Of a stretch of DNA of 32,000 nt, positions 7,893-27,889 are shown one piece after another. How positions within the stretch are numbered: position 1 is the first letter of the stretch; the number at the start of each line of letters is the position of its first letter. The position numbers and the translations under genes are program-made. Below the pieces are notes generated by a model, which was not told the origin of the DNA, did not search any database, and worked only from the letters and a program-made list of their open reading frames with translations. The stretch lies in the NCBI RefSeq assembly GCF_049819085.1, contig NZ_CP187419.1, positions 3,345,884-3,377,883 on the forward strand, written 5' to 3'. Origin of the DNA: Anatilimnocola sp. NA78. Lineage in GTDB: Bacteria; Planctomycetota; Planctomycetia; Pirellulales; Pirellulaceae.

Positions 7893-10800
7893 GCGTTCCC
7901 CTTCGCCCGCTTGAGCAGTTCGGCAATCTTGTAGTTGACGCTGGCGATGCCGAACTCCGGCTCACGCTGGAAGGGGTTGCCGAGGTAGTGCGGTCCCTGC
8001 ACGCTATCGTCCGGGTTCACGAAGACGAGGGCCAACTCGAACTTCGCCGCCTGGTTGAAGGCGTAGAGCAGTTCGTTGTGCGTGACGCAGATCGTGTCCG
8101 CCCCGGCGAAGCGGCCTTTCACCTCGATGTGCTTCGGGTCCGGCTGGATGGTATTGACCACCGGCGGGTAGCTTGTGACATCCCAGCCACATTTTTCCTT
8201 GCTCACATCGACGACGCGGTGCCCCTTGGCCGCCTCCGCGTCCATCACCGCCTTCATGGCCAGGTCTTCGACACGCTTGCGGTCGGCGGCCTCGGCGGGC
8301 GTGATCGCGGAGCCATCGCCCTTGGCCTGCCGCAATAGCCCTGCCGGCACGACGAGCGCGCCGCCGAGGATCACGGGGGTTCCGTTCTGCACCTGCCGCA
8401 TCGCTTGCAGGTCCTTTTTGCGGCCGTCGAGCCGGCTTTGCAGGTCGTCGAGCGTCTTCTTGACGTTGTCGATCTTGAGCCGCATATCCCGCCCCGCCGC
8501 GAGGTCGTCCTTGAACTTGATTTCGCGGTCGGTCCAGAAGGCGATTTCCTTGGTCAGTCGTTCGTGGACGGCGGCGAGGGTTTTATCGACGTGCTCGATG
8601 CGACGTCCGGCGACTTCCGCGAAGTGCTCCGGCACCAGCGACCCGGCCGCAAGGGCGATGGCCTTCTGCTCCTGGTCGGTGCGAATCCAGTCGGCGTTGA
8701 GCAGATCGGTGATGCGGGGCCGGTCGGCGTCTGGGAGCGGTTCGAGATCGAGGTGCGGTGCCCAACCGGCGAACGCGGCGGAGCCGTCCGGGTTCACGCG
8801 GATGAACTGCATCCGCTTGGAGAGGACGACGCCATCGCCCCCTTTGACCTCGTGCGTGAGCAGGAAGAGAAGCCAGGGGGTCGCACCGTCGTCGGCAGGA
8901 TCGAGCAGCACCGTACCGCGACGGAGCAGGTTGGCGTTCTGCTCGAGGATCATGTCCGTCAGCGACAGCATGAGCGGATGGCCGGGGTGCATGAGCATGG
9001 CGCGGGCGAGGCCGGGCTTGTCGCTCGGCTGGATCGCCTCGCGGGTGAAGGCGACGCGGTCGTATCGCTTGAGAACGGGCTCGTTCTCGCGGCGGTTGCG
9101 GCCGGTGAGGCGGCGGTCTCGTTCCCGAATCGCGGCGGGAACGTGCGTGATCTCCCAGCGTTCGGATTCTCGCTTGTGGATGGTGCCGCCGAGGCTGTCG
9201 AAGGCCTTGAGGAAGAACGACCGGACGAAGAATGGCTGGAGCCGCCGGGCCTCGGCCTTCTCCATCTCTTCCTTCACCTTGAAGAGCCGATCGGCGGACA
9301 TGGTTTCCTGAGCCAGCGCACTGCGGTTGAGCAGATTCTTCAAGTGCTCGTGGTCGAAGGCGTGTTCGATGGTCTGCGAGAGCTTGGCCCGGATTTCCGG
9401 TCTGTCGCCGTAGCGAATGGCTTCGATCAGCAATTCCTTCAGGCTCTTCTCCTCGAAGACGTCGCCGAGGATGTTGAATACCTTGCCTTTGAGCGCCTCG
9501 CACTCGACCGCGAGCTTTTCGAGCAGCCGGTGCCAGACGTCGCCTTCGCGGGTCTCCTTGGCGACGAGGCTCCAGAGGTGGCAGACTTCGGTTTGGCCAA
9601 TGCGGTGGATGCGGCCGAACCGCTGTTCAAGGCGGTTAGGGTTCCAGGGCAGGTCGTAGTTCACCATCAGGTGGGCACACTGGAGGTTCACGCCTTCGCC
9701 CGCGGCGTCGGTGGCGATCAGTACGCGGGTATCGGGGTCCGAACGGAACAGGGCCTGCGACTTCTTGCGTTCGTCTTTGTTCGTGCCGCCGTGGATGGTG
9801 ATGATACTGTCGGCCGAGCCGAGCACACCGGCGATCTTGGCGTGCAGGTAATTAAGCGTGTCGCGGTGCTCGGAAAAAATGATGATCTTGTGCAGGCGAC
9901 CGCTGGCGTCGTGCATCTCGGGGTTGTTTTGTAGGATCTTCGAGAGCTCATCCCACTTACGATCCATGCCCGACACGACCACCTCCTTTGCCTGCTTCTC
10001 CAAGTCCGCGAGGATGAGGATTTCCGCTTCGAGTTCGGCGATGGTCTTCGCAGCCGTTGCCTGATCGACCAGCTTCTCTTCGAGGTTCTCCTGCTCGTCG
10101 GCATTCAGGTCGTCGTCGTCCTCGGGAACGTAGTCCACGGTTTCTGCGAGGAGTTGCTTGCCCCGGTCGCCGAGCTTCTCGGCCCGGAGACGCTCGCTCA
10201 GGCGGTCCTTCCGGCGGCGAAGCGACTGGTAGATGGCCTCCGGGCTGGAGGCGAGACGACGTTGCAGTGTGGTGAGCGCGAAGCCGACCGAGCCTTTGCG
10301 GGAGCCGCCGAGTTGATCGGCCTTGCCCATTTCCGTGCGGACGTAGTTCGTGACAGTCTCGTACAGCTTGGCTTCGGCATCCGAGAGCTTGTAGTTGGCG
10401 GTGTAGGCTTTGCGTTCAGGAAACAGAGGGGTGTTGTCGAACTTGACCAGTTCCTCTTTGACCATGCGACGCATGAGATCACTGGTATCGACCTTGTGGG
10501 TACCATCGCGGGGCTTGCCGTAGAAGCGATCCGAATCGAGCAACGAGAGGAAGAGTTGAAAGTCTTCCTCTTTGCCATTGTGCGGCGTGGCGGTCATCAA
10601 CAGCAGGTGACGGGTATCCCCGCCCAGCCGCTCGGCGAACCGGAATCGCGCGGTCTTGTCGATCTTCGACCCGAAAAAGTGGGCGGCGAGCTTGTGCGCT
10701 TCGTCGAAGACGACCAGATCCCATCCGGCGGAACAGAGCTTGGCCTGGAGCAGGCTCGGCTTTTTTTCGTTGCCGTCGTCCTCTTCGCCACGTGAGAACT

Positions 10801-11416
10801 GGTCGAGCCGAACGATCAACAGGTTGTGATCCTCGAAGACATTTCCGCTGGGCGACGATGCGTCGCCGCCGGCGAAGACTTGGAACGTCAGACCAAACTT
10901 CTCGAACAGCTCGTCCTTCCACTGATCGACCAGGCTGCCGGGCGCGACGATGAGCACGCGACGAGCGTCCGCCCGCATGATCAGTTCGCGGATATAGAGC
11001 CCGGCCATGATCGTCTTGCCAGCCCCGGGATCGTCGGCGAGGACATACCGGAGCGGTTGGCGGGGCAGCATCGATTCGTAAACGGCGGTGATTTGGTGCG
11101 GAAGAGGATCGACGTTGGAGGTGTGGACGGCCATCATCGGATCGAAGAGGAACGCGAGGTCAATCCGCTTGGCTTCGCAGGCCAGTTGTAACGCGGCCGC
11201 GTCACCGTCAAACGCCCATGGCCGCTCGACCGTGGCGACGGAGATGCTCGCTTCGTCGGCGGGGCCGAGGAGACGTTCCTTGAAACTCCCGTCAGGCAGC
11301 TTATAGAAGACCTGAACAGCGTTGTGTGCGTACGGCGTGACTTGGATGATGATGCACACACGATCCGGCTCCAGGCCGACGAGGGCGAGACCGGGTTTGA
11401 GGTCGGCCAATTTCAT
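7889..11416 (-). CDS. SNF2/superfamily-2 helicase with a C-terminal PD-(D/E)xK-like (DUF3883-like) nuclease domain (1175 aa)
   Basis: Start set to ATG 11416 (MKLADLKPG), preceded by AAGGGAGA. Helicase motifs are [13 protein letters not shown] (I), VFDEAHKL (II), [10 protein letters not shown] (III) and [11 protein letters not shown] (VI). The C-terminus [10 protein letters not shown]...HIEVKG...THNE fits a restriction-endonuclease fold. Confidence 0.85.
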
Positions 11417-11659
11417 GAAGTCTCCCTTCGCCGGACTTTCCGCGCTTGTCTTGGTGCCTCCGGCCCCTTGGCAGACTGGTCGCTGAGTTTCGGACAAGAA
11501 ACGGACGGATAGCTTACCGGACCTACTCGCTTCCGCACAGGTCGGTAGCGTTTACCGGAGCTTGCCCGAGCGATCGATTAACAGCAGCACAATCCCTGCT
11601 ACCCCGGCAACGTGACCAGAGACCCCTTACGCAAACCGTCTCGTTCACGGGGCCCACAT

Positions 11660-12004
11660 TTACCGCTGCATTCGCCAGTCCAGCGTATCCACAATCGGAC
11701 GGAGTTGCCTTTCCGTGAGTGGGTTGCGGCCGCGTTTGATGGCCGGCAACAAAAGAACCTGCTCCTAAATGTCCGGCGCACGACAAAGCAGGTTTATGAT
11801 CTGGGTCAGACGTGCACGTGTTAAGTGGCTCAAACGCGCGAGCTCCGCCTGATTGGTCACCACCGCGTTATGCGGATGGGTCGGTTCGAGTTTGGGTCGG
11901 CAGTGATGTGCGAGATTCGCAACAAAACAGAGAGGGCGTAGTGAGCGCAGAGAACTGCCCAGCAACTTTGCTTTTAGAACGCGTGCCTTAAAATGCCAGC
12001 GCAT
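11660..12004 (-). pseudogene. ParB-like HTH small protein, copy 1, interrupted by an in-frame TAG
   Basis: It reads ..TNQAELARLSHLTRARLTQIINLLCRAPDI*EQVLLLPAIKRGRNPLTERQLRPIVDTLDWRMQR*. The TAG at 11765-11767 sits where copy 3 has CAG (PDIQEQILL). Homology to copies 2 and 3 continues past the stop. Confidence 0.6.
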
Positions 12005-12128
12005 CGTGAATTTAAATGGCGCGATGAAATGGCTACTTGAACAGATCGGGAAAACAACTTGAGTGAACTTCGGGCGCGCTGTGCCTGATCATGGAGCGAT
12101 GGTGATCTCAACGTCTGCAAACTAAGCT

Positions 12129-13253
12129 CTATTCGAAAAAGTAAATTCGCTGCAAAGCACGTCGGCACTCTCCCTCATGCTTCGGCAGTCCCTTCATTTT
12201 GCGGAAAAAGCCCAAAATGCTATCGTCTGTAGTGCTTGGAAAAAGGTAACGCGAAAAATCAGCCGGTAGTTGATCGTACATCTGCGGCGTGAGGCGAAAC
12301 CCGCACATCAGATAACTGCCCATTTGATTAGTAGCAGCCCCCCACCCCACATGCGCAAACCACGCACTTTGCCTATCCGGACGCCCGACAGGAAACTGCT
12401 TCGGCCGCACGTATCGATAATCAAAAATGGTTTCAAGTGGACATCGAAAGACAAACACTGTTGGTTCTGCGTCGTCCGGCAATATGCTGCACGCAGCATG
12501 TCCGTTTCCATCAGTAGAAATTGTATAAAGGGCAAACCAAGCAGCTACGTTAATATCGTCGGTCAGGTCGAGGCCTACACTGGGAAGGCCATAATGCTGC
12601 GCTATTCCCAGCGAGAATCCATCAAAGTCTGGTGATCGTCGCAGCGCTGCCACGTCGTCTGCATAAGCTTGCATGCTGCTCTCAGACAGCGTCTTGCGGT
12701 AGTCGCAACCAACGTCATGTAGCAATACCGCCGCCTGATTATGCCAAATCGATTGAAGTGTCAAGTCGTCAAAATCGGCCCTCAAAAAGCTCGGCAAAAA
12801 CGACGGTTCGTTGACCGTCGCTCCGTAAAGCAAATTGCTGTCTGCACTATTTCGATTAAGCATATACGTCCTTGACTGCCCGCGAAGTAGCAGTTTATGA
12901 CTCTGATTTGCAGAGGTGAGCCTGTCAATTGCCGACATGATTTCTTGAAGGCTACTCACAGCAAATATGGGGATTCGGCGATAGGGAACTCGCAACTCCT
13001 CGACGATTGCGAGCCCGTCAAGCTTGACGTAATGCTCCATTTTTTCCGTGCGTCCATATACGGCGCGTCTTACTATACGGTTGCGTGTAAATACGCGACC
13101 GTACTTGTGATCTAAAAACGCCTCGGGTGCGCCGAACCCACCATCACCGTCGGCGTCTCCGCTTGGGTGGGCCTCGTTGAACAACGGGTATACATTGTGC
13201 AGTGCTGGCAGTCGCAAACGAGGATCTTCTAGTTCAATAGCTTCAATCGTCAT
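12129..13253 (-). CDS. FRG-domain protein (374 aa)
   Basis: The motifs KLLLRGQSRTYMLNR...LPSFLR and GIAQHYGLPSVGLDLTDDINVAAWFAL match the (F/Y)RGQ and AQHYGLPTxLLDxT signatures of the FRG domain as I recall them. ATG 13253 overlaps the upstream stop as ATGA. Confidence 0.75.
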   Translation of the reverse strand: MTIEAIELEDPRLRLPALHNVYPLFNEAHPSGDADGDGGFGAPEAFLDHKYGRVFTRNRIVRRAVYGRTEKMEHYVKLDGLAIVEELRVPYRRIPIFAVSSLQEIMSAIDRLTSANQSHKLLLRGQSRTYMLNRNSADSNLLYGATVNEPSFLPSFLRADFDDLTLQSIWHNQAAVLLHDVGCDYRKTLSESSMQAYADDVAALRRSPDFDGFSLGIAQHYGLPSVGLDLTDDINVAAWFALYTISTDGNGHAACSILPDDAEPTVFVFRCPLETIFDYRYVRPKQFPVGRPDRQSAWFAHVGWGAATNQMGSYLMCGFRLTPQMYDQLPADFSRYLFPSTTDDSILGFFRKMKGLPKHEGECRRALQRIYFFE

Positions 13254-13870
13254 ATGACCATCACATTTGCATTGTGGTCACCAAAGCGAAGCGGCACGCT
13301 CATGCGATTGGCGACCCAGGTAAGGATAAACATTGAGAATGCAGATGATGCGCGCGCGTTGAGAAAAATGCGAGCTGCATTCCCACCGCGAGCGGCAATC
13401 ATTTCAGCAAAGTGACAGCACTGGGCCACCACAGCGGTATGCATCTGGGAAAGGGCAGGCAGAATCAAATCAGAAAGGAAATCAGGGAGTGCCACTACAT
13501 ACGCATGCCGCGCTGGATCGGCGATTACCGAGACCCGAGTTCGTTGCACACTAATTGCTTCGATAAAAAAACTGACCGTTTCATCGTCCAGCTCAGACCT
13601 AAACGCATCAAGGGAATGCGAACTGATTGTGACTCGGTTGCATACGGCCTGAATAAGTGCTGCATAGTCACTTTCAAATAATGGTGTTAATGCGGGGGCT
13701 TGGTTGATGGGGAGAATAAGTGTGGCTGGCGCGTGGGGATTGTAGCCTGGCACTTGCAATTCGCGAAACTTGTATATGAAGTCAATTACGCAAAGCCGAC
13801 TGTTAATGTGGTCGCAAAAGAGCGCAAACTCCGGCTGGTCAAAAGCAACACATGGGACATATGTAGGCAT
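13250..13870 (-). CDS. Hypothetical protein (206 aa), translationally coupled to the FRG-domain gene
   Basis: A clean ORF with a 4-nt ATGA overlap onto the downstream gene. No motif recognised. Composition is AT-richer than the flanks. Confidence 0.6.
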   Translation of the reverse strand: MPTYVPCVAFDQPEFALFCDHINSRLCVIDFIYKFRELQVPGYNPHAPATLILPINQAPALTPLFESDYAALIQAVCNRVTISSHSLDAFRSELDDETVSFFIEAISVQRTRVSVIADPARHAYVVALPDFLSDLILPALSQMHTAVVAQCCHFAEMIAARGGNAARIFLNARASSAFSMFILTWVANRMSVPLRFGDHNANVMVI

Positions 13871-14718
13871 TCGAAGCTCACAGTACGCGATAAATAATGA
13901 TCAACAGAGTGCTTATGCGTGGGTGCTAACCACGCTGATATGACGTGATGAAGAATGCTTCGCCAAAGAGGTCATTCACCGGCTTCAACACGATAATCCG
14001 TAAGTTCATGCGTACCAGATCCTGTTGACGAGTTGATTGCCACGCAGCGATGGTGCAGTTTAACTTCCTTGACTGCGTACTCTAACGGGGCTAAACTTGA
14101 ATAAACAGTCGTCGTCGCGTGAATTCGCTCAGCAGAGAAGCTGGAATCAGACCGGCCCCAAATTGTGCTGACCGGCTTCGACGGTCTGAATCACGCGGCC
14201 ATCAGAAGCTCACTGCGGCGTTTGTTGATTTCGTATTTGATGGAACAGGCGCAGCCTAAGGGCCCGGCAGTCAACTTCAATCCGTGGCAGGGCGGTGATC
14301 GCTACTCGAAAAGGATTGGCCTCGGGCTCGAGAGGCGGGCGAGCCGGCTGAGGCCATCAAGACGACAACTGCACGATCGAAGGTTGGAATGCCAACCTAC
14401 CGTCGGATTCGTTTTTCGAATATTCCGCGATATTGCTCACCATGCTTGCCCTGATCTTGATCTGCCGCTGATGTTCCTGTTGCTCGACGGCTCGCTCGTG
14501 AATTCCACGGTGGAAGCATAACTTTCGGCCAGGGTACGCTTCGGATCCGCCAGTTGCAGAGCGACAATGCCCCGGGGCTGTGGTATCCAACCTATCACTA
14601 GCTGAAGCGGCACCGGGATCATCGCAGTTTGATCCGAAGCTGTGTGCCGCAGTAAAGCGAGGTGCCAACCCGTTCTAGTGCAAGCTCCGTCCCGCGGCCT
14701 GGCCTTAACCTGTGCATC

Positions 14719-15069
14719 TCACTTTGTGATCTCGACCCACATCTCACAATGTTTCTTCCAGCATAACGTGGCGCAAATCGATCGCAACTTCTTTTCCATA
14801 AGCGCGGTTCGGCCAAGTTTAGCTTTTTGAAACTGTAAAGTATGTTCCTGAATAACAGGCGCAAGAAATAATAGATTCATGATTTGCGTCAATATGGCCC
14901 GCTTAACATGTCCAAATCGTGCCAATTCCGCCTGGTTGGTCACCAAGCCATCGCGGATTAACTGGTCGAGCCGAATTGGCAGTGCCATGAGTTTCGACAT
15001 TCGCGGGACGGTGCTCCCGCCAGACGCAGATTTCTCCCGCGTGTACTGCCGTTTCCGAAAATGCACCAT
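14719..15069 (-). CDS. ParB-like HTH small protein, copy 2 (116 aa if started at ATG 15069)
   Basis: MVHFRKRQYT...LVTNQAELARFGHVKRAILTQIMNLLFLAPVIQEHTL...LRSICATLCWKKHCEMW aligns along its length with copy 3. The ATGATG start of copy 3 is ATTATC here, so a downstream ATG is used if the gene is still expressed. Confidence 0.55.
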   Translation of the reverse strand: MVHFRKRQYTREKSASGGSTVPRMSKLMALPIRLDQLIRDGLVTNQAELARFGHVKRAILTQIMNLLFLAPVIQEHTLQFQKAKLGRTALMEKKLRSICATLCWKKHCEMWVEITK

Positions 15070-15080
15070 TCGTTCGATGA

Positions 15081-15262
15081 TAATGCTGAATCGTCCTTTC
15101 GTTTCGCGATTTCGCTGCCCAGCGTCTGGGTCCCGCACGAGTGGAATGTGATCGATATTTTCCCAACATCGCAGTCGTAGGCCGCGCATTTAACCAGGAG
15201 ATCAACAATGCGAGCCTGTTCACGCTGCGCCAGACAATCCCAAAGAGATTCGAACTCGATCG
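15081..15262 (-). pseudogene. Relic of the 3' end of a large serine recombinase gene (about 60 codons)
   Basis: My translation IEFESLWDCLAQREQARIVDLLVKCAAYDCDVGKISITFHSCGTQTLGSEIAKRKDDS aligns with the intact recombinase C-terminus AEFEGVWECLAPREQARMVELIVERVSYDGHAGSVAIIFRSSGLQAIGSEVSKRKDDAA. A TGA lies immediately upstream in frame and the normal stop is lost. Confidence 0.6.
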
Positions 15263-15448
15263 GCCCTTTCTCAGATCACCATTGAGGACGGTTTTAGGCG
15301 AAACATCAAGGTCCTGGCGTGGATTCCCGAGCGCGTTGCGTTTCTGCAGATGCGGGATGCCCGCGGCAAGGATGCTGACAATTTCACGGCGATGCTCATC
15401 GGGTGTCTTGGCATCCGGTCGATCGTGGCTTCGGCATGGTATGGCCAT
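15263..15448 (-). pseudogene. Relic of the small ORF that heads the recombinase module (homologue of 21764-22012)
   Basis: TPDEHRREIVSILAAGIPHLQKRNALGNPRQDLDVSPKTVLNG aligns with SPEERRHELANILARGVLRLVQRQRSASDAGALKPTKTLLDS. It abuts the recombinase 3' relic directly, which implies deletion of the DUF2924 gene and most of the recombinase gene. Confidence 0.4.
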
Positions 15449-15818
15449 AGGTGAAGGGTTGACGTTGAAACGCGCACAGCGTTCCTCCCTTACTTAAGCT
15501 ACGCGATGGACATGGTCCCTCGTCGAAATGCCGCAAAGAATTGTGCACAGGGAGCCGCATTTCCTCCCGCCATGTCTCGCGGGATGGTCACGGCTGCATC
15601 GAATTCTGGCATCATCCGCGGCCGATCTCGCGCAGTAAGTGTCCCAGTCAGTGCTCCTTAGCGGTAGATGATCCTATGGTGCAGTGTGATTTACGACCGT
15701 GTCGCACCTGCTACAATCATTATTGGAAGTTAACGCCTAGAAGAGCATTTAAGATGCCAGATAGTGAGCGACGGTACCCGGCGCCGCTCAACTAGAGGAC
15801 TATTGCACAGGAACCGCC

Positions 15819-16610
15819 ATGTATAAAGGCTTCGACCTTAGAGGCTTTTCCGAACGTTTTATTAAGCCTCAATTCCGGAATAGCCTTCGCGAACATGGCC
15901 GCGCTGTGACCGCGTCTAACCACGACGATGTTCGGCGCCGTTTAGCGGCAATCGCGACCGAAAATGCCGTACTCAACGGAGCGGAGATTCAAGACAGCTG
16001 GTTTCCGCAGGTAAACGCTGACGTGTTCCTTTCTCACTCGCATCGTAACGAAGATTTGGTGTTAATGCTTGCCGGGTGGCTCCACGACCGATTCGGACTC
16101 AAAGCATTTATTGATTCTTCCATTTGGGGCTACGCCGGCGAGTTGCTTCAGATTATTGACAAGGCGTATTGCTGGCAGCCGGAAAGTAAGACGTATAATT
16201 ACCAGCTGCGCAATGAGTCAACCAGTCATGTGCATATGATGTTGACGACAGCATTGGGCATGATGATCCATAGAACGGAATGCTTGATTTTTGTCAACAC
16301 TCCAGATTCCATCGAGGCGGAGAGAGTAATAAAATCGCAGACTTACTCTCCATGGATATACGTCGAACTCACGATTGCGGGCATAGTGGGCGAGGTTGAG
16401 CCCAAAAGACTAAAAGAGAAACGCGCGATGCTGAAAGCTGCTGCTTCTCGAGAACTCTTGGAACGTCGCAAATTGCAGGTACTTCATACGATCGAGCATC
16501 TTGATCGTCTGCGCCCGATCGAGAAGGAAACTCTGTTGACGTGGGCCAAAGACTGCAAAACAAAAGGCGTTGACGCATTAGACATGCTTTACGAAGTCGC
16601 GGCCTGGTGA
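15819..16610 (+). CDS. TIR-domain protein (263 aa), candidate second ThsB-type sensor
   Basis: NADVFLSHSHRNEDLVLMLAGWLHDRFGLKAFIDS gives the TIR betaA/alphaA region. ECLIFVNTPDS...SPWIYVELTIA gives the S.W...EL region with the conserved Glu. The gene is convergent with thsB. Confidence 0.6.
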   Translation: MYKGFDLRGFSERFIKPQFRNSLREHGRAVTASNHDDVRRRLAAIATENAVLNGAEIQDSWFPQVNADVFLSHSHRNEDLVLMLAGWLHDRFGLKAFIDSSIWGYAGELLQIIDKAYCWQPESKTYNYQLRNESTSHVHMMLTTALGMMIHRTECLIFVNTPDSIEAERVIKSQTYSPWIYVELTIAGIVGEVEPKRLKEKRAMLKAAASRELLERRKLQVLHTIEHLDRLRPIEKETLLTWAKDCKTKGVDALDMLYEVAAW

Positions 16611-16704
16611 ACCGGAAGGCGTAATGCAAATATGAAAAATTGCGCCGCAACTAATGCGTCAGTTGTATCGAGCGTGACGTCGCTTGACAGTTGATGCCAC
16701 CGAC

Positions 16705-17196
16705 TCAATACCTCGCACGTATTGCCAGCGACTGATCGAACCACTCCGCCAGGTTGTCGGTGATGTACTTGTAAACTTCTTTACTGTCCCAGAAGGGAGG
16801 GTCATAGGTCTGCACAATTGAAGATAACGGAGTGCTACCTATGTTGAAGCTGGAGAACGGATTGGTACCTTTACTCGATTGATCTCCCTTCGAGTCCTTC
16901 AAATTGTGGATGTATATCCCAAGGAGTCCCTTCTTTTCACGCCAAGCCTTTTCGATCTCGTAGTTTATCCATTTTCGTCCGGCGGTATTGGCGCCAATGA
17001 GAACTACGGCGCACGACTTCCCAAATAACTGCCCGTCGATCCAACTTTGAATCGCCGCATCGCCGCCCTTCTTGATGGACTCCCAGTCGTTGTCTTCTGC
17101 GGGCCTGTTGCCTTCAATACTGCCGATGCTGCGGACGGTAGCTGCCCGCCAGCAATCGGGTTGGTAGTGGAAGCTGTAAAACGCACGTCGCGACAT
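16705..17196 (-). CDS. thsB: Thoeris ThsB, TIR-like (DUF1863-type) protein (163 aa)
   Basis: MSRRAFYSFHYQPD...AVVLIGANTAGRKWINYEIEKA...GIYIHNLKD closely parallels Bacillus cereus ThsB (RVFFSFHYQ...CVLIGSQTFNRRWVRYEI...GIHINAFKD). It lies 9 nt downstream of thsA. Confidence 0.85.
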   Translation of the reverse strand: MSRRAFYSFHYQPDCWRAATVRSIGSIEGNRPAEDNDWESIKKGGDAAIQSWIDGQLFGKSCAVVLIGANTAGRKWINYEIEKAWREKKGLLGIYIHNLKDSKGDQSSKGTNPFSSFNIGSTPLSSIVQTYDPPFWDSKEVYKYITDNLAEWFDQSLAIRARY

Positions 17197-17205
17197 CGAT
17201 GCATC

Positions 17206-18615
17206 CTATTTGTTGAGTGCCTTCAAGATTTCGGTGACTGCTTTCACGAGCTCGTCGACCGGTGCGGTCTCATCACCGAGGATCGCAAACGGCTTAGCGA
17301 CATCAGCAGAGCCAAAAAACTTGGGAAGATCCTCGCTTACTTCATCCCACAATTCACGAGCAACATGGCCCGTGGCGCCTATTGGCAGCACAATCTTGCC
17401 TTCAGCCAGAGTGAGTCTAGCTTCCTCTCTAACGCCTTGGGCGCGATCAATACGATCATCTGCTCGCTTGTTTCCGCTGATTACAACGCAAATGCCAGCT
17501 TCAGCGATCATGCGCTTCCGATATTCAGTCCAGAACGCTGCGCGGTCTTGTATATCGGGGATCTCCTGGGGAAATGGCCAAAGCTTTAAGCGTTGGTCGT
17601 CGTTTCGAGGCAGGGACTGCAAAGCACCCGTGATGACATCGCCACCGATACCGTGGCCAAAACCGGAAATGACATTGAAGTCTTCTTTAACGAGTACGCG
17701 GCCTAACTCACGACATATCGCACGAAGTTTTTCCTCGCCGAGGGGCATAAAATCGGCCGCACTCCCGGATATCAGCACATCGCGCAGATGACTGCGTCGG
17801 TTTAGTTCGTTCAAAATCTCCGGGATTTCATTATAAGAATCGAGCAAAACCGGTTTGATGTTGTATCGTTCTAAGTCGACGAGAAAGTGCTTGAATCGCT
17901 GCACGTCGTAGCCAGCACCCTTGTAATCTTCCGGACGCGGTTGCCTGAGCAGGCAGAAATGCTTACGTCCCTGCGCGTCTACCAGTTGCCGCACGCGGTT
18001 AAGAATGTAGGCAAGGTTAGGGTCAGTGAAGCTCACGCCAATGAAGAGGAACGTCTTCTGAGTGAGGTCGCCCTTCAACGCAATGGAAAAAAGCTCTCGC
18101 TTGGGGTGATAGGTTTCGTAATCATCCTTTGCCAGAACAGCTTCAGCAATCGCCGTTTTGTCCCCGTGCATCTTGTAGATAGTGACGTCCGTTCGACGAC
18201 GTGTGAAGTTAATGTCATCTTTGTGCCGCTTCACATCGACCCGCTTACCGGCCAATTCAAATGCCTTCTCAAGCAAGTCATCGTAGTTGGTTGTCCATAT
18301 TGTTCCCAAAGGGAGCGAAGCGATAAGCTTGTGTGCCCTCGTTGGTTCGTGTGTTTCGAGAAACTCATCGACCAAAATCTGGTTGAGCTTATCCCGCCCC
18401 TTTCGCTCGTTTAGATGGAATTGCGCAAGCGTGATAAGATCGGATTCACGCTCGACGTCGAGTCCCAGATCCTCAGCAATTTCCTTCAGCAACCCCTTCC
18501 AGTCGACATATCCCGCTGCCTTCGAGACGCCAGCGCCGACGAACATTGCTGCGGAGCCGTTCCGCATAGCTTCCGAATACTCGCGAATAAAGATCTTGCG
18601 ATCTATTGCGGCCAT
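17206..18615 (-). CDS. thsA: Thoeris ThsA, SIR2 NADase plus SLOG domain (469 aa)
   Basis: Collinear with B. cereus ThsA from memory. SIR2 motifs are AAMFVGAGVS, IWTTNYDDLLEKA (catalytic Asn), IYKMHGD (catalytic His) and TFLFIGVSFTDPNLAYIL. SLOG motifs are LISGSA, FNVISGFGHGIGG, WPFPQ and VLPIGATGHVARELWDEV. GGAGGA sits upstream of ATG 18615. Confidence 0.9.
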   Translation of the reverse strand: MAAIDRKIFIREYSEAMRNGSAAMFVGAGVSKAAGYVDWKGLLKEIAEDLGLDVERESDLITLAQFHLNERKGRDKLNQILVDEFLETHEPTRAHKLIASLPLGTIWTTNYDDLLEKAFELAGKRVDVKRHKDDINFTRRRTDVTIYKMHGDKTAIAEAVLAKDDYETYHPKRELFSIALKGDLTQKTFLFIGVSFTDPNLAYILNRVRQLVDAQGRKHFCLLRQPRPEDYKGAGYDVQRFKHFLVDLERYNIKPVLLDSYNEIPEILNELNRRSHLRDVLISGSAADFMPLGEEKLRAICRELGRVLVKEDFNVISGFGHGIGGDVITGALQSLPRNDDQRLKLWPFPQEIPDIQDRAAFWTEYRKRMIAEAGICVVISGNKRADDRIDRAQGVREEARLTLAEGKIVLPIGATGHVARELWDEVSEDLPKFFGSADVAKPFAILGDETAPVDELVKAVTEILKALNK

Positions 18616-18931
18616 AAGTCCTCCGATTACGAATGCTTAAATCAAGCCTTAGATCCCTTCGGCAGTCCCGTTTGAAAGACACGTTTGGTCTTATCGGCAG
18701 AATCCGATTTGTGATCGCCGCCTGATTGTAACGATCGAAACACAGTCAGTTCAACATCTTCCGCTGACATTTCCGAACAATTACATCTACAAGCTGAGAT
18801 GGCGTTCTGGGGCGCGGCACTGCGATTGTTTCATTCACACTGTAATCCTCCTGGATCACTGGAGCGCGATTCCGCAGGTTCACGGATTTACGTCACGTGC
18901 GGCGGCGAAAACATGCTTCAACTCCGAATTC

Positions 18932-19270
18932 TCATTTTCGCCTTCCTAAGCTATCAACTAACTCGGAAACGAAGGCGTTTGTACGTCCCTCCAGCTTCCC
19001 ACCAAGGGCCGCCCATTGGGTCTGAAATCCCAATTCGCGTGCTTCTGCCAAGCCAAGCAAGCTATTCGTACAAACTTCTTCCGAAACGTCATGGTCTGCC
19101 ATCGTAGAAAGCAGGCATCGCATCACCCAAAGCGTCGTTGACCCGGCGTCAATGCCCATATGACCAAAGCCGGGCTTCTCAATCCATTCTTCCTCGGTGC
19201 GGCCGGCAAAGGATTTTGCATCGCTCTTAGCAGGGCTAGACAATTGAAATCCACGAGGAACTATTCGCAA
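18932..19270 (-). CDS. Possible small hypothetical protein between HTH copy 3 and thsA. Start uncertain.
   Basis: This is the only co-directional ORF in a 720-bp gap. Internal Met candidates are MGIDAGS.. and MADHDVSEEV... No motif recognised. Confidence 0.25.
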   Translation of the reverse strand: MRIVPRGFQLSSPAKSDAKSFAGRTEEEWIEKPGFGHMGIDAGSTTLWVMRCLLSTMADHDVSEEVCTNSLLGLAEARELGFQTQWAALGGKLEGRTNAFVSELVDSLGRRK

Positions 19271-19333
19271 CCAAAGCTCTACGAGGAGCCAAAAAGCCGA
19301 AACAAGAACAGCGTAAGTCGTTTTTGCACCAAA

Positions 19334-19711
19334 TCACTTTGTTAAAACGTTCCACATCTGTCGCTGTTTCTTCCAACAGAACGTTGCGTAGATTGGGCGC
19401 AACTGCTTCTCAGTAACTGGGGCCCGCCCCGGCCCGGTCTGTTGAATTAAAAGAATCTGTTCCTGAATATCCGGAGCGAGAGTCAACAGGTTCATGATCT
19501 GTGTCAGCCGCGCGCGCGTAACATGGCCGAGCCGCGCCAATTCCGCTTGATCGGTCATCAATCCTTCGCGAATCAATTGCTCAAGTCGAATCGCGAGCGC
19601 CATTAGCCGCGAGACACGTGGAACACGACCGCCTCCCGATGCCAAATGAGATGTTGATTCTTGGCTTGCGCTTTGTTTCCGCTGAAAATGGACCTTACGT
19701 TCGATCATCAT
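19334..19711 (-). CDS. ParB-like HTH small protein, copy 3 (125 aa), intact, last gene of the recombinase module
   Basis: LMTDQAELARLGHVTRARLTQIMNLLTLAPDIQEQILL resembles the ParB/KorB HTH plus LP..VQ..L element. Its ATG overlaps the recombinase stop as ATGA. Confidence 0.7.
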   Translation of the reverse strand: MMIERKVHFQRKQSASQESTSHLASGGGRVPRVSRLMALAIRLEQLIREGLMTDQAELARLGHVTRARLTQIMNLLTLAPDIQEQILLIQQTGPGRAPVTEKQLRPIYATFCWKKQRQMWNVLTK

Positions 19712-21264
19712 GCTGCATCGTCCTTTCGTTTCGAAACTTCACTTCCAATCGCTTGCAAACCGCTGGAGCGGAAGATGATGGCAACGCTACCGGCGTGTCC
19801 GTCATAGGACACCCGTTCGACGATTAGCTCTACCATGCGGGCTTGCTCGCGCGGCGCCAGGCACTCCCAGACTCCTTCAAACTCGGCAAGCGCGCTTGGC
19901 ACGTCATCGCCATTCAGAACTTCTTTGTCGAGTGCCGCGAGTTCACAGTTGATCAGAGACATACGCTGCTCAGCGTTCTGGATGCGTTCGTGGGTGGTTG
20001 AAAGTCTCGCGGCGTCGATCTCGGTGCTGGTCGCCATTTGTGCCAATTCAGAATGGTCGTTCCGCAGCCGAGTAAACAAATTCCCTCGCTCTGCTTGCAG
20101 ATTGTGAACCTGCGAATCACGCTGACGGCAAGCTTGTTGCAACGAGTCACGTACAAGCTGTGGATCACGGCAAAGCGATTTCATTTCGGTGATGACGAAA
20201 CGCTCGATCTCAGCCGCGGGAATTGATGGTGCGGGACACGTTTGCCAGCCGCGCTTCTGAGCACGGTTGCAAATGTAATAGCGATATTCTCGTTTTCCGC
20301 GTGTCGTGTACGAATGGCTCATCCCGCACTTGCAAGGCTTGCACTGGAGCAGTCCGCGTAGCAACGCACCATGCTTGTTCCGAACACCGCGCCCACCGCT
20401 GCGGCCATTTCGCTCGAGCAGCGATTGAACGCGGTTAAATTCGTCCTCTGGCACGATCGCCTGGTGTTCGCCCGCGTGGACTTCCTCCTTGTACCGGACC
20501 TTGCCGATATAGGTTGGATTCGTGAGCAGCTGATGCAGCGAGCTCTTGTCGAATGTTCGACCGCCCCGGACCGACCCTTTGCGCGTATTCCACCGCTTGG
20601 TTCGCCAGCCTCGCAAGTTCAATTCGTCGCTAACCGCGAGCAGGGACTGGCGTTCTAGGTACATTTGGAAGATCTGCCGAACCATCCCGGCTTCCCCAGG
20701 ATCGACCACGAGCTTCGTGTCGACCACGTTGTAGCCCAGAACTGGCATGCCCCCGGACCACTTCCCCTTCCGCCGGGCCGCGGCGATCTTGTCGCGCGTT
20801 CGCTCGCTGATCATTTCCCGTTCGAACTGAGCGAACGAAAGCAGTACGTTCAGAATGAGCCGGCCCATCGACGTCGCCGTGTTGAACGCCTGCGTTACGC
20901 TGACAAACGAAACCTTGTGCCGTTCGAAGACCTCGATGATCTTGCCGAAGTCGAGGAGGCTGCGGCTCAAGCGATCAACTTTGTAGACGACCACGCAGTC
21001 GATCTTGCCCGCTTCGATATCGGCAATCAGTTGACGCAAGCCGGGGCGATCCATGTTGGCGCCCGTAAAGCCACCGTCGTCGTACTGCGTCGGCGAACAA
21101 ACCCAGCCCTCGTGTAACTGGCTCTTGATGTACGCTTCGCCGGCCTCGCGCTGCGCGTCGAGCGAGTTGAACTCTTGCTGCAATCCTTCCTCGGTCGACT
21201 TCCGCGTGTAGATCGCGCAGCGAACGCTCTTCGGCGCTGGTGTTTTGATTTGTTGGCGTTTCAT
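19708..21264 (-). CDS. Large serine recombinase/integrase (518 aa)
   Basis: Start set to ATG 21264 (MKRQQIKTPAPKSVRCAIYTRKSTEE, with the catalytic Ser in YTRKST). The resolvase core shows VVYKVDRLSRS and FAQFERE. The recombinase domain and zinc ribbon show CKPCKCGMSHSY..YRYYICN..CP, followed by a C-terminal coiled-coil-like region. The start overlaps the DUF2924 stop as ATGA. Confidence 0.9.
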   Translation of the reverse strand: MKRQQIKTPAPKSVRCAIYTRKSTEEGLQQEFNSLDAQREAGEAYIKSQLHEGWVCSPTQYDDGGFTGANMDRPGLRQLIADIEAGKIDCVVVYKVDRLSRSLLDFGKIIEVFERHKVSFVSVTQAFNTATSMGRLILNVLLSFAQFEREMISERTRDKIAAARRKGKWSGGMPVLGYNVVDTKLVVDPGEAGMVRQIFQMYLERQSLLAVSDELNLRGWRTKRWNTRKGSVRGGRTFDKSSLHQLLTNPTYIGKVRYKEEVHAGEHQAIVPEDEFNRVQSLLERNGRSGGRGVRNKHGALLRGLLQCKPCKCGMSHSYTTRGKREYRYYICNRAQKRGWQTCPAPSIPAAEIERFVITEMKSLCRDPQLVRDSLQQACRQRDSQVHNLQAERGNLFTRLRNDHSELAQMATSTEIDAARLSTTHERIQNAEQRMSLINCELAALDKEVLNGDDVPSALAEFEGVWECLAPREQARMVELIVERVSYDGHAGSVAIIFRSSGLQAIGSEVSKRKDDAA

Positions 21265-21755
21265 TTCGCACCTGCCTTCTCGCGCAGGCCGAAGAAATGA
21301 AATCCGTTCCAGTGTTTGCCAGTGATCGCTTTGGCCACCGCGGTCAGCGACTTGTACCGCTCGCCTTCGCATTCGAAGCCGTCGTCGAGCACGATCACGC
21401 TAATGGTCCGCCCCTTGTAATCGCGCTTAAGCCTCGTGCCCGGCAGCAAGTGCGTGGATGCGGTGATCTTTGCTGGCACAGTCTTCGTGCGTTCGTCGGC
21501 ACCGTCGGTGGATCGCCGTGGACGCGGTGCGGTGACGCGGAGGTCGGCATCGTTGGCCAGCTCCATCGCCCGCCGGCGAGCTCGTTCCGACAATCCGCCC
21601 TCCGCGTTCGCCTGCATTCGCCAGGCAATTCGCTTGATCAGCCATTCCTTGTTGCGGCCGGTGGTCGCTTCGCCGAAAACCTCGGCGAACTTCCCCCGCA
21701 ATTCGTCGACGGTCATCCGCTGCATCGCGGTGACCTGTTTGTCAATGTTCAGCAT
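21261..21755 (-). CDS. DUF2924-type protein (164 aa), usual partner of this recombinase class
   Basis: The N-terminus MTVDELRGKFAEVFGE and C-terminus LLPGTRLKRDYKGRTISVIVLDDGFECEGERYKSLTAVAKAITGKHWNGFHFFGL match what I recall of DUF2924. GGAG lies 5 nt upstream of the ATG. Confidence 0.8.
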   Translation of the reverse strand: MLNIDKQVTAMQRMTVDELRGKFAEVFGEATTGRNKEWLIKRIAWRMQANAEGGLSERARRRAMELANDADLRVTAPRPRRSTDGADERTKTVPAKITASTHLLPGTRLKRDYKGRTISVIVLDDGFECEGERYKSLTAVAKAITGKHWNGFHFFGLREKAGAK

Positions 21756-21763
21756 ATCTACTC

Positions 21764-22012
21764 CTAGGTTGAGTGACTCTCGGGACCGTTAACCCGTGTG
21801 GACACTGAGCACGGTTTCCTTCCGAAGCTCAAGGCCTCCGGCTGAGAATCGAGGAGAGTTTTTGTAGGTTTCAGTGCCCCGGCGTCGCTTGCCGAACGCT
21901 GACGCTGAACCAGCCGTAACACGCCCCGCGCCAGGATGTTAGCGAGTTCGTGCCGGCGTTCTTCAGGTGATAGATCGTCGGAGTTGGCGGCGTTACGCAT
22001 GGGCTTTCTCAC
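21764..22012 (-). CDS. Small hypothetical protein (78-82 aa) heading the recombinase module
   Basis: Start is GTG 22012 or ATG 22000. A decayed homologue exists at 15263-15448. It ends 8 nt upstream of the DUF2924 gene. Confidence 0.5.
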   Translation of the reverse strand: MRKPMRNAANSDDLSPEERRHELANILARGVLRLVQRQRSASDAGALKPTKTLLDSQPEALSFGRKPCSVSTRVNGPESHST

Positions 22013-22233: not shown

Positions 22234-22250
22234 GCTAATTGGAATTGCTC

Positions 22251-22907
22251 ATGGCCAAACGTAAGCGACCTGGTCGGCCCTTCGTGGAGAAGATCACGGA
22301 CGCCCAGCGAACAACGCTGCAGGCGATCCGCGATTTCATCACGCAGCACGAGTTTCCGCCGACGATGCAGGAGCTCGGTCAGAAGCTGAAGATCAGCGGC
22401 GCCAGCGCTCATCAGCTGGTGCGGCAGCTCGAGCGTAAGGGATACGTCAGTCGTATCCCGAAGCAAGCTCGCAGCCTCAAAGTCCTGCGGGAGATCGAAC
22501 AGCAGCCCGCTTCGCTCGTCTCGGTTGAACTGCTCGGGATGGTGGCTGCCGGCCAAGAGCTGTGGGCCGACGAAAACAGGCTCGGCGAGGTCATGGTGGA
22601 AAGCAGCCTCATTGGTCGTGGCAAGCACTATGCCTTGCGGGTGAAGGGCCAGAGCATGATCAACGCCGGCATCCGGGAAGGCGACATCGTGATCGTCAGG
22701 CAGCAGCCAGTAGCCGAGAGCGGCGAAATCGTTGTGGCGTCAACCAGTAAGGGGACCACGGTGAAGCGGCTGTTCATGCAAGGGGATCAGATTGAGCTGC
22801 GCCCAGAGAACAAGCTGTTCAAGCCGATTCTCGTGTCCGAAGAATCGGATCTCAGAATTCTAGGAAAGGTGATTGGTATTAGACACTCAGCAGAAAGGGA
22901 AGGATGA
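22251..22907 (+). CDS. lexA: LexA-type repressor: winged HTH plus S24 self-cleaving peptidase (218 aa)
   Basis: TLQAIRDFITQHEFPPTMQELGQKLKISGASAHQLVRQLERKGYV is a LexA N-terminal domain. VAAGQ carries an Ala-Gly cleavage site. VKGQSM carries the catalytic Ser and TTVKRL the Lys. ATG 22251 is preferred over the TTG at 22239. Confidence 0.85.
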   Translation: MAKRKRPGRPFVEKITDAQRTTLQAIRDFITQHEFPPTMQELGQKLKISGASAHQLVRQLERKGYVSRIPKQARSLKVLREIEQQPASLVSVELLGMVAAGQELWADENRLGEVMVESSLIGRGKHYALRVKGQSMINAGIREGDIVIVRQQPVAESGEIVVASTSKGTTVKRLFMQGDQIELRPENKLFKPILVSEESDLRILGKVIGIRHSAEREG

Positions 22908-22908
22908 C

Positions 22909-25018: not shown

Positions 25019-25202
25019 CGTTTTTGCAGTTGCACTGATTTGCTGCAACGGACGATCTGCAATTTGATGCTGCCAACAGCCTGTGGCCCAACGACTTGCG
25101 TTGAGCCACAGGTTTTTTCGTGCGCCGGGCTGCAATTCGGCCGGCGGGTGTTGCTGTGCCCAGTCGTGCACAGCGGGTTCAGCACCCGTCGGAGTCGCGC
25201 AC

Positions 25203-27888: not shown

Positions 27889-27889
27889 A

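What the first reader, a model, noticed from the sequence alone, without database searches (positions are those of the whole stretch)
11660..22012. Three copies of one serine-recombinase module, in graded decay, partition the island into cargo modules
The intact module (22012->19334) has four genes: small ORF, DUF2924, large serine recombinase, ParB-like HTH gene.

At 15448->14719 the same order survives as three pieces:
- a relic of the small ORF;
- fused directly to it, the last roughly 60 codons of a recombinase (IEFESLWDCLAQREQARIVDLL... versus AEFEGVWECLAPREQARMVELI...);
- a full-length HTH gene whose ATGATG start has mutated to ATTATC.

At 12004->11660 only the HTH gene remains, broken by CAG->TAG at 11765-11767, with homology continuing beyond the stop.

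All three copies are on the same strand. Each is followed on its downstream side by a different co-directional defence-type cargo: Thoeris, the FRG operon, and the helicase/MTase/ATPase operon.

This fits repeated arrival of related integrative elements at one locus, with the older integrase modules decaying and the integrase-proximal cargo being retained. It would mark the region downstream of the HTH gene as a variable defence hotspot of this element family.
Basis: partly seen in the sequence, partly recalled or inferred. Interest (0 to 1): 0.7.

Follow-up and report, generated by a model that had tools for sequence, protein, structure and literature searches.

The report
Prophage defence bay with integrase relics
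Next to a tRNA-Asn gene of a planctomycete sits a prophage whose integration genes are followed by three anti-phage defence systems, separated by two decayed copies of the same integration genes from related phages, which makes it a clear example of how defence islands build up, though the process itself is already known.

Summary
Window = Anatilimnocola sp. NA78.

- **Module A (22012->19334):** an intact operon of small ORF, DUF2924, large serine recombinase (LSR) and HTH gene.
- **Relic B (15454->14719):** a near-complete small ORF fused to the last ~58 LSR codons, plus an HTH gene that has lost its start codon.
- **Relic C (11869->11660):** only the C-terminal ~60% of the HTH gene, with TAG at 11765-11767.
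- **Cargo:** each copy is followed by a different defence locus, namely Thoeris, an FRG operon and Hma.

What it is: the module is the integration module of a widespread temperate-phage family of Planctomycetota.
- tRNA-Asn lies near the module in 45 of 161 loci.
- A conserved ~120-bp "arm" follows the tRNA and always faces the module.
- The stretch between the HTH stop and the arm is a variable cargo bay, 448 bp when empty. Elsewhere it holds SIR2-HerA, Gabija, PDC-S37 or restriction-modification systems. Iet, Mza and another Hma lie directly after the HTH gene in loci where no arm was found.
- Here the bay is 18.7 kb, the largest of 12 measured, and it is compound.

B and C belong to other lineages of the family, so they came from separate relatives. 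There is only one arm and no tRNA fragment between modules. Build-up by recombination with resident prophages therefore fits better than separate tandem integrations.

Verdict: a new member of a known kind, with moderate interest.

The parts
388..461 (+). tRNA-Asn (GTT). Its 3' end faces the island. It is the likely attachment gene of the phage family.
   Evidence: ARAGORN and Rfam. 45 of 161 related loci carry tRNA-Asn, and 45 of the 49 tRNAs found are Asn.
463..591 (+). Conserved 'arm' next to the tRNA: a hairpin, GGTTAACGC, then a terminator-like hairpin at 511-533. It is inferred to be the phage-derived side of the attachment junction and the outer limit of the cargo bay.
   Evidence: An nhmmer profile hits here with E 4.5e-19, and this is the only copy in the window. 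The motif occurs in 31 loci, always with its tRNA side pointing away from the module.
830..1474 (+). 214-aa ORF of unknown function between the arm and Hma.
   Evidence: No Pfam or PADLOC match.
2131..11497 (-). Hma defence operon: HmaA 7889-11497, HmaB 4968-7892, HmaC 2131 to ~4971. This is the cargo next to relic C.
   Evidence: PADLOC HmaA 1920 bits, HmaB 1562 bits, HmaC 1408 bits. Pfam finds SNF2/NOV_C, DUF1156 and DUF499.
11660..11869 (-). Relic C: the C-terminal ~60% of an HTH gene. It has TAG at 11765-11767 and a premature stop at 11660-11662.
   Evidence: Family profile positions 53-86 and 88-121, E 2e-12 and 6e-10. 60% identical to A over 77 aa. 5 of 20 conserved columns are changed.
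12129..13870 (-). FRG-domain protein (12129-13253) plus a 206-aa partner (13250-13870). This is a candidate defence cargo next to relic B.
   Evidence: Pfam FRG E 2.9e-6 and PADLOC PDC-S15 E 1e-7. The partner has no match.
14719..15096 (-). Relic B, HTH gene. It is full length with an open frame, but the start codon is lost (ATGATG -> ATTATC).
   Evidence: Profile E 1e-44. Alignment. 4 of 29 conserved columns are changed.
15084..15258 (-). Relic B, last ~58 codons of a large serine recombinase. The stop codon is lost.
   Evidence: The L003 recombinase hits with E 7e-18.
15263..15454 (-). Relic B, near-complete small ORF fused to the recombinase tail. DUF2924 and LSR residues 1 to ~496 are deleted.
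   Evidence: A small-ORF family profile built without the window hits with E 7.5e-10, positions 18-89 of 109.
15819..18615 (.). Thoeris type I: ThsB 15819-16610 (+), ThsB 16705-17196 (-), ThsA 17206-18615 (-). This is the cargo next to module A.
   Evidence: PADLOC ThsA E 1.5e-165; ThsB E 7e-68 and 1.4e-74. Pfam finds SIR2_2, STALD and ThsB_TIR.
19334..22012 (-). Intact integration module A: small ORF 21764-22012, DUF2924 21261-21755, LSR 19708-21264, HTH 19334-19711. Stops and starts overlap.
   Evidence: Pfam DUF2924, Resolvase, Recombinase and Zn_ribbon_recom. The same operon occurs in nearly all of 160 related loci.
20195..20215 (.). Recombination breakpoint inside the LSR gene (residue ~387), seen against the A. 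aggregata relative. To the right identity is 84-97%; to the left it is 46-63%.
22239..32000 (+). Body of prophage A: LexA-like repressor 22239-22907, 419-aa and 317-aa genes, sigma-like 25083-25820, DnaB-like 26272-27888, and a terminase-large-subunit-like gene from 30967 to the window end.
   Evidence: Pfam and PHROGs. Homology to phage backbone clusters, including the GpA-type terminase. 94.7% nt identity to A. aggregata L162.

Best explanation
The window shows one end of a temperate prophage sitting at the 3' end of tRNA-Asn.

- **Integration operon.** The operon (small ORF, DUF2924/RAMA-type DNA binder, large serine recombinase, small HTH protein) is transcribed toward the tRNA.
- **Cargo bay.** The stretch between the HTH stop codon and a conserved arm next to the tRNA is a cargo bay. 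In this phage family it is filled with ever-changing genes, mostly anti-phage defence.
- **Compound bay here.** The order is Thoeris, module relic B, FRG operon, HTH relic C, Hma, arm, tRNA-Asn.

The most likely history runs as follows.
1. Related phages of the family occupied this site one after another.
2. Each newcomer joined the resident by recombination rather than by a fresh, separate integration. This placed its own module and cargo on the phage-body side.
3. The resident's now redundant integration genes decayed. B lost DUF2924, most of the recombinase and its HTH start codon. C was reduced to a stop-ridden HTH tail.
4. The adjacent defence operons were kept by selection.

**Shown:** the homology and graded decay; the distinct lineage of each copy; the identity of the cargo; the variability of the bay across the family; the tRNA-Asn and arm association; the single arm in the window; and a recombination breakpoint inside the recombinase gene between two very close relatives.

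**Inferred:** that the recombinase is what integrates at tRNA-Asn; that the arm is the phage side of the junction; the order of arrival (C, then B, then A); and the recombinational route.
For: **Homology and decay:**

**Independent lineages:**

**Phage nature**
- 167 stretches in IMG/VR viral contigs encode a relative of the HTH protein.
- The backbone has Prim-Pol, helicase, ParB-methylase and GpA terminase genes.
- The window has a terminase-like gene at 30967+.

**tRNA-Asn and arm**
- 45 of 161 loci carry tRNA-Asn, and 45 of 49 tRNAs found are Asn.
- The arm has a strict orientation. The distance from HTH stop to arm is 448 bp (L031, empty), then 2.5-9.8 kb, then 18.7 kb in the window.
- Where no full tRNA precedes the arm, a partial tRNA-Asn 3' part does.

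**Bay contents elsewhere**
- SIR2-HerA (L003), PDC-S37 (L028, L052) and type I restriction-modification (L149).
- Gabija (L119) and a methyltransferase (L023).
- PtuA-like ATPase plus type I restriction-modification (L004).
- Iet, then an HTH relic, then type I restriction-modification (L002).

**Cargo inside viral contigs,** between the HTH gene and the XRE/ImmA regulators
- Hma (L104).
- Methyltransferase plus Mza, and type IIG restriction-modification plus a Snf2 helicase (L143, L147).
- L142 and L145 are empty at this position.

**Close relatives carry different bays**
- A. aggregata L162 is 94.7% nt identical to the window up to LSR residue ~387, then about 60%. Its bay holds a DUF4132 protein, two HTH relics and type I restriction-modification.
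- L163 has an LSR 87% identical to A's and another bay again.

**Against separate integrations:** one arm only, and no tRNA fragments between modules.
Against: - The far end of prophage A lies outside the window, and the NA78 genome could not be fetched. Neither att site is demonstrated.
- No recombination or excision was observed. The role of the recombinase at tRNA-Asn is circumstantial, and tRNA targets are typical of tyrosine integrases, not serine ones (PMC10654092).
- Whether the arm is phage or host DNA is inferred. In L119 the gene beyond the arm looks host-like.
- The proposed route needs an illegitimate join at each step.
- The age order rests only on the degree of decay.
- Relic-bearing arrays are few: the window plus L002, L021, L069, L161 and L162.
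- FRG is only a candidate defence gene, and some bays hold non-defence genes.
Confidence: 0.62

Rival explanations
1. The compound bay, relics included, was assembled earlier in the phage lineage. It arrived at this tRNA-Asn in a single integration of phage A, so nothing accreted at this chromosomal site.
For: - Cargo lies inside viral contigs in the family.
- The closest relative of phage A, in another species, also carries HTH relics in its bay.
- There is one arm only in the window.
Against: - None of 80 IMG/VR contigs carries a downstream HTH relic.
- 18.7 kb is about twice the next largest bay and would strain packaging.
- The relics and cargo of L162 are unrelated to those here.
Confidence: 0.17
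2. One reading: three independent site-specific integrations in tandem at one attB, each with its own att pair, followed by decay of the older two.
For: - All copies have the same orientation.
- The family is linked to tRNA-Asn, and a tRNA rebuilt by integration could be targeted again.
- Tandem SCC-type cassettes driven by serine recombinases are a precedent (PMC11470126).
Against: - No arm and no partial tRNA-Asn lies at the A/B or B/C junctions.
- No shared repeats bound the modules.
- Re-targeting the tRNA would put the newest element next to the tRNA, whereas the most decayed copy is there.
Confidence: 0.12
3. The extra HTH copies are not relics. They are working regulators that travel with each defence operon.
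For: - Each operon is preceded by an HTH copy on the same strand.
- B's reading frame is still open, with an internal ATG five codons in.
Against: - C has two in-frame stops and lacks the N-terminal 40%.
- B has lost its start codons and 4 of 29 conserved residues.
- B carries recombinase and small-ORF debris.
- In most other loci the cargo has no HTH of its own.
Confidence: 0.04
4. The three copies arose by local duplication of module A within this genome.
For: Same strand and same gene order.
Against: - Copies are only 53-63% identical in protein.
- C is closer to proteins from other metagenomes (74%) than to A, with A ranked 122nd.
- The flanking cargo is unrelated.
Confidence: 0.02

Closest known systems
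Tandem SCC / SCCmec-like cassettes of staphylococci, mobilised by Ccr large serine recombinases (PMC11470126)
   Same: - Large serine recombinase modules sit next to a conserved chromosomal gene end.
- Neighbouring cassettes are rich in diverse defence systems.
- Composite arrays contain cassettes that lack a working recombinase.
   Different: - SCC cassettes are each bounded by repeated att sequences and are not phages.
- Here no repeated att sequence bounds the modules.
- Here the carrier is a temperate phage, the anchor is tRNA-Asn rather than rlmH, and the recombinase comes with DUF2924 and an HTH gene.
Defence hotspots in temperate phages and satellites (P2/P4-type variable loci flanked by conserved phage genes; from my own knowledge of Rousset et al. 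2022)
   Same: - A fixed position in a phage genome is bounded by conserved features: the HTH gene on one side and the att arm or XRE/ImmA regulators on the other.
- It is occupied by a different defence system in each relative, and empty states also exist.
   Different: - A different phage family, host phylum and integration enzyme.
- Here the hotspot is adjacent to the integrase and keeps scars of earlier integration modules.
- The last third of the recombinase gene is exchanged together with the cargo.
Defence islands at tRNA-linked integration hotspots, built from degraded mobile elements (general model; my own knowledge, e.g. Hochhauser et al. 2023 and Rocha & Bikard 2022)
   Same: - An island next to a tRNA gene.
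- Several defence systems interleaved with decayed integrase genes of related elements.
   Different: - The integrases are serine, not tyrosine, recombinases.
- There are no repeated tRNA fragments between modules.
- The newest element is the one farthest from the tRNA.

Membership tests
Large serine recombinase (phage-type serine integrase) module | N-terminal resolvase catalytic domain with the catalytic serine | tested here: met
   PF00239 E 1e-39. The motif AIYTRKST is present.
Large serine recombinase (phage-type serine integrase) module | Recombinase domain plus zinc-ribbon domain, followed by a C-terminal coiled-coil region | tested here: met
   PF07508 E 2.4e-17 and PF13408 E 2e-13. 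The coiled-coil-like stretch at 411-485 is supported only by a weak match.
Large serine recombinase (phage-type serine integrase) module | Demonstrated attP x attB recombination | not testable with these tools
   Only positional evidence is available: the arm and tRNA-Asn lie next to the module in many loci.
Thoeris type I | ThsA with SIR2 and SLOG/STALD domains, plus at least one TIR-type ThsB alongside | tested here: met
Hma (helicase-methylase-ATPase) system | HmaA SNF2 helicase, HmaB DUF1156 methylase and HmaC DUF499 ATPase in one operon | tested here: met
   Near full-length PADLOC matches for all three.
Tandem SCC-like composite island | Each cassette is bounded by repeated att (direct-repeat) sequences recognised by the recombinase | tested here: not met
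   No shared repeats at the module junctions, only one arm, and no tRNA fragments.
Tandem array of tRNA-targeting integrative elements | A displaced partial tRNA copy at each inter-element junction, with the newest element next to the intact tRNA | tested here: not met
   No partial tRNA-Asn anywhere else in the window. The most decayed copy is the one nearest the tRNA.
Phage-borne defence hotspot | A variable locus between conserved phage features, with different defence systems in relatives and an empty state | tested here: met
   Empty states are L031 (448 bp), L142 and L145.
Phage-borne defence hotspot | The carrier is a phage, with packaging and structural genes | tested here: inconclusive
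   The family backbone has a GpA terminase and the window has a terminase-like gene at 30967+. The rest of prophage A lies outside the window.
   The family profile matches the ParB structure 4umk with E 0.046 over 40 residues. Pfam HTH_3 scores below its cut-off. PHROG 14161 matches with E 3e-15.

The most novel reading that the evidence does not exclude
- The bay is a heritable defence archive that passes from one prophage occupant of tRNA-Asn to the next. A newcomer takes it over by recombining inside the serine-recombinase gene, so that the recombinase C-terminus, the HTH gene and the cargo move as one block.
- The HTH remnants left in front of each operon then act as homology handles that let related phages pick up or drop single defence cassettes.
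- The family would also be a serine-integrase lineage that targets a tRNA gene, with an attP that carries the tRNA 3' part. That would be unusual for this enzyme class.
Probability: 0.25. Interest if true: 0.7.

Novelty: new member of a known kind. Interest (0 to 1): 0.5.

Why it matters
- **A legible record of island growth.** Each defence operon still carries the scar of the integration module it came with.
- **A new hotspot to mine.** It defines a conserved hotspot, from the HTH gene to the att arm, in a widespread and little-studied phage family of Planctomycetota. The hotspot can be mined for new defence systems by position alone. Candidates seen here:
  - the FRG operon;
  - a DUF4132 protein;
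  - STAND-like giants of 1604 to 1924 aa;
  - an unannotated three-gene operon in L163.
- **A possible new integrase target.** If the tRNA-Asn targeting by a serine recombinase holds, it adds an unusual target class to enzymes that are used as genome-engineering tools.

Tried and rejected
1. **att-like repeats at module borders.** I looked for repeats bounding each module, using window-wide repeats and pairwise short-word comparison of eight junction segments. Nothing rose above chance.
2. **Partial tRNA-Asn copies** at the junctions: none found.
3. **The arm profile** at the A/B and B/C junctions: no hit. A lone GTTAACGC at 15729 has no accompanying hairpin.
4. **A GGGTTAACGC-type motif** shared by the arm and the small-ORF/LexA intergenic region: not enriched in the window, with 29 matches against 25 expected.
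5. **A fixed crossover point inside the HTH gene.** Rejected, because relic boundaries differ (profile positions 25, 34, 53 and 81).
6. **Co-inheritance of Hma with its HTH.** Rejected, because C's HTH is not close to that of the Hma-bearing L104.
7. **Remains of phage body genes inside the island:** none found.
8. **Extending the window.** Exact-protein look-ups failed three times because the NA78 genome is not indexed.
9. **'Phage genes on both sides of the arm' in L115 and L119.** Not upheld, because the L119 neighbour is a PEP-CTERM protein.
10. **A recurrent tyrosine integrase near the att region.** None appeared among the families listed for 89 ORFs from 37 loci. Only 25 of 66 families were shown, so a single weak case cannot be excluded.
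Full report
**Origin and gene map**

The HTH protein of the intact module is identical to NA78x_002729 of Anatilimnocola sp. NA78, a planctomycete. From left to right the window holds the following:

| Window coordinates | Strand | Feature |
|---|---|---|
| 388-461 | + | tRNA-Asn |
| 830-1474 | + | unknown 214-aa ORF |
| 2131-11497 | - | Hma defence operon |
| 11660-11869 | - | relic C |
| 12129-13870 | - | FRG-domain gene and a 206-aa partner |
| 14719-15454 | - | relic B |
| 15819-18615 | mixed | Thoeris (ThsB on +, ThsB and ThsA on -) |
| 19334-22012 | - | intact module A |
| 22239 onward | + | LexA-like repressor, two unknown genes, sigma-like factor, DnaB-like helicase, terminase-like gene running off the window end |

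The terminase-like gene is supported.

**Checking the observation**

- **B against A.** B (15258..14719) aligns with A (19885..19334) at 67% nucleotide identity, E 5e-39. C (11862..11751) aligns with A at 73%, E 8e-15.
- **Protein level.** The B HTH is 65% identical to A. The recombinase tail is clearly homologous. C is 60% identical over 77 residues, with in-frame stops.
- **Small-ORF relic.** It was the weakest claim. A profile built from 85 other loci, without the window, finds it at 15454-15263 with E 7.5e-10, over almost the same profile range as the intact copy.
  - B therefore once had a whole module. It then lost DUF2924 and recombinase residues 1 to ~496 in one internal deletion.
- **Mutations.** The ATGATG to ATTATC change and the loss of the recombinase stop are as described. 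So is the TAG at 11765-11767.
- **Two corrections.** Only 11869->11660 of C is homologous, and one ThsB gene is on the opposite strand.
- **Decay is graded.** A has 1 change in 29 columns that are at least 95% conserved. B has 4 of 29. C has 5 of 20 plus two stops. Only 2 of 265 family members reach 4.

**What the module is**

- The HTH family is very large: the protein search saturated at about 8000 hits.
- In 160 loci fetched from genomes and IMG/VR viral contigs, DUF2924, the recombinase and the HTH gene are almost always together, usually with the small ORF in front.
- In A. aggregata the genes overlap by four bases.
- DUF2924 partly matches the RAMA DNA-binding domain (PMC11342252).
- The HTH protein resembles the ParB HTH only weakly, E 0.046.
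- The surrounding conserved genes are those of a temperate phage:
  - LexA-type or XRE/ImmA-type regulators;
  - a sigma factor;
  - helicases and primase-polymerases;
  - a ParB-methylase;
  - a GpA-type terminase.
- Two arrangements occur.
  - In one, as in the window, the module is divergent from the regulator and points outward.
  - In the other, the module is followed co-directionally by the regulators and the phage body.

**The tRNA-Asn link**

- ARAGORN finds tRNA-Asn in 45 of 161 loci, and 45 of the 49 tRNAs found are Asn. Two are Met.
- Directly after the tRNA comes a conserved stretch of about 120 bp: a hairpin, GGTTAACGC, then a terminator-like hairpin.
- A profile of this stretch finds 31 loci. 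It lies either downstream of the HTH gene on the opposite strand, or 313-600 bp upstream of the small ORF on the same strand. The tRNA side always points away from the module.
- Where no whole tRNA precedes the arm, a partial tRNA-Asn 3' part does. In L023, L135 and L061 it runs from the anticodon loop onward. In others it is only ..TCGGGGAGC. That is what an attP carrying the end of its target tRNA looks like.
- No tyrosine integrase appeared among the families listed for 89 non-redundant ORFs from 37 such loci.
- I therefore infer, but have not shown, that the serine recombinase integrates these phages at tRNA-Asn. That would be unusual, because tRNA targets are typical of tyrosine integrases (PMC10654092).

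**The cargo bay**

In the outward-pointing arrangement, the distance from the HTH stop to the arm is:

| Locus | Distance (bp) |
|---|---|
| L031 (empty) | 448 |
| ten other loci | 2451 to 9819 |
| window | 18746 |

The contents differ in nearly every locus.

| Locus | Contents after the HTH gene |
|---|---|
| L003 | SIR2-HerA, then tRNA-Asn |
| L028, L052 | PDC-S37-type giant helicases |
| L149 | type I restriction-modification |
| L018 | 1924-aa STAND-like protein |
| L119 | Gabija |
| L023 | cytosine methyltransferase and a PDC-M30A-like gene |
| L004 | PtuA-like ATPase with type I restriction-modification |

In the other arrangement the cargo sits between the HTH gene and the XRE/ImmA regulators, inside viral contigs.
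- L104 carries Hma.
- L143 carries a methyltransferase plus MzaB/C/E, and L147 carries type IIG restriction-modification plus an HKD-Snf2 helicase.
- L142 and L145 are the empty state.

Not everything in the bay is defence. The second A. aggregata element carries sulfatase, SASA, GDSL and esterase genes.

**Close relatives**

- A. aggregata L162 is 94.7% identical in DNA to window 26341-20195. That block runs from downstream of the sigma-like gene through LexA, the small ORF and DUF2924 into the recombinase.
- At about 20210 (recombinase residue ~387, the end of the zinc-ribbon domain) identity drops abruptly to 46-63%.
- Its bay is wholly different: a DUF4132 protein, two HTH relics and a type I system.
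- L163, with a recombinase 87% identical to A's, has yet another bay.
- Other pairs with recombinase N-terminal identity of 94% or more keep 78-100% in the C-terminus and the HTH. The L162 drop is therefore a true recombination joint.
- The recombinase C-terminus, the HTH gene and the bay are exchanged as a block.

**Relics elsewhere**

- Extra HTH or recombinase fragments lie downstream of an intact module, on the same strand, in five other loci:
  - L002 (Iet, then relic, then type I restriction-modification);
  - L021;
  - L069;
  - L161;
  - L162.
- None lies upstream, apart from one marginal opposite-strand hit in L137.
- None was found in 80 viral contigs.

**How the island was probably built**

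- B and C are from other branches of the family and did not co-travel with their present kind of cargo. At least three separate donors contributed.
- The window has one arm only. It has no tRNA fragments, no shared repeats and no phage-body debris between modules.
- The most decayed copy is nearest the tRNA.
- Together these points argue against three independent site-specific insertions into the tRNA.
- They fit a newcomer joining the resident prophage by recombination: homologous on the body or recombinase side, illegitimate on the other. The resident's redundant module then decays while its defence operon is retained.
- A pre-assembled bay delivered in one integration remains possible.

**Comparison and verdict**

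- The closest described cases are:
  - tandem SCC-like cassettes with defence genes mobilised by Ccr serine recombinases (PMC11470126);
  - defence hotspots of P2/P4-type phages and satellites;
  - the general model of defence islands as degraded mobile elements at tRNA hotspots.
- The present case shares the logic of all three. It fails the defining tests for SCC-type arrays and for tRNA-repeat arrays, because no att or tRNA repeats separate the modules.
- It is a new member of a known kind: an unusually readable example, in an under-studied phylum.
- Its practical value is a hotspot for finding new defence genes.
- It also leaves an unconfirmed side-lead, a serine integrase family tied to tRNA-Asn.

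Noticed in passing
window 388-591; loci L003, L018, L023, L031, L046, L052, L061, L135 and others: The serine-recombinase phage family is tied to tRNA-Asn: 45 of the 49 tRNAs found near the module are Asn, and 2 are Met. A conserved ~120-bp arm follows the tRNA. Some copies have only a partial tRNA 3' part, which looks like an attP. tRNA targeting would be unusual for a serine integrase.
   Followed up: partly
window ~20195-20215, against L162 9517: There is an abrupt drop from about 92% to about 58% nucleotide identity inside the recombinase gene (residue ~387, the end of the zinc-ribbon domain) between two Anatilimnocola prophages. The recombinase C-terminus, the HTH gene and the cargo are swapped as one block.
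   Followed up: yes
loci L017, L018, L021, L023, L109, L114 versus L121-L126, L144, L157, L159: The four-gene module occurs in either orientation relative to the same neighbouring phage genes (LexA or 419-aa, 317-aa, sigma) and to the tRNA arm. It looks as if the module alone had been inverted.
   Followed up: partly
window 22873-25018; loci such as L083, L091, L117, L145: Between the regulator and the sigma-like gene the family carries alternative, unrelated gene cassettes of unknown function, mostly pairs. In the window these are the 419-aa and 317-aa genes. This is a second variable slot.
   Followed up: no
window 22057-22095 and 25826-25864; also 494-503, 682-694, 22177-22186: A 39-nt imperfect inverted repeat links the small-ORF/LexA intergenic region with the region after the sigma-like gene. 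GTTAAC-containing words recur there and in the tRNA arm. The word itself is not enriched in the window (29 matches against 25 expected).
   Followed up: partly
L161 10471-16747 (A. aggregata): A second element in A. aggregata has Sel1, sulfatase, SASA, GDSL-lipase and esterase genes after its HTH gene, followed by a 144-aa recombinase zinc-ribbon relic. The bay can therefore hold non-defence genes, or the element sits against host genes.
   Followed up: no
L072 3249-3442, L074 3456-3647: In two loci the same arm motif follows a tRNA-Met instead of tRNA-Asn. In L074 an HmaA-like helicase follows the HTH gene.
   Followed up: no
window 12001-19000 versus 2001-11000: The Thoeris and FRG regions have 48-53% G+C, whereas the Hma operon has 57-67%. 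This suggests the cargo came from different sources.
   Followed up: no
window 830-1474: A 214-aa ORF with no match in Pfam or PADLOC lies between the arm and Hma, on the opposite strand to the rest of the island.
   Followed up: partly
L001 9459-10378, L054 9471-10384: These loci hold only the recombinase C-terminus (from residue ~375-380) plus the HTH gene, with no DUF2924 or N-terminal part. That is close to the breakpoint seen in the window.
   Followed up: no
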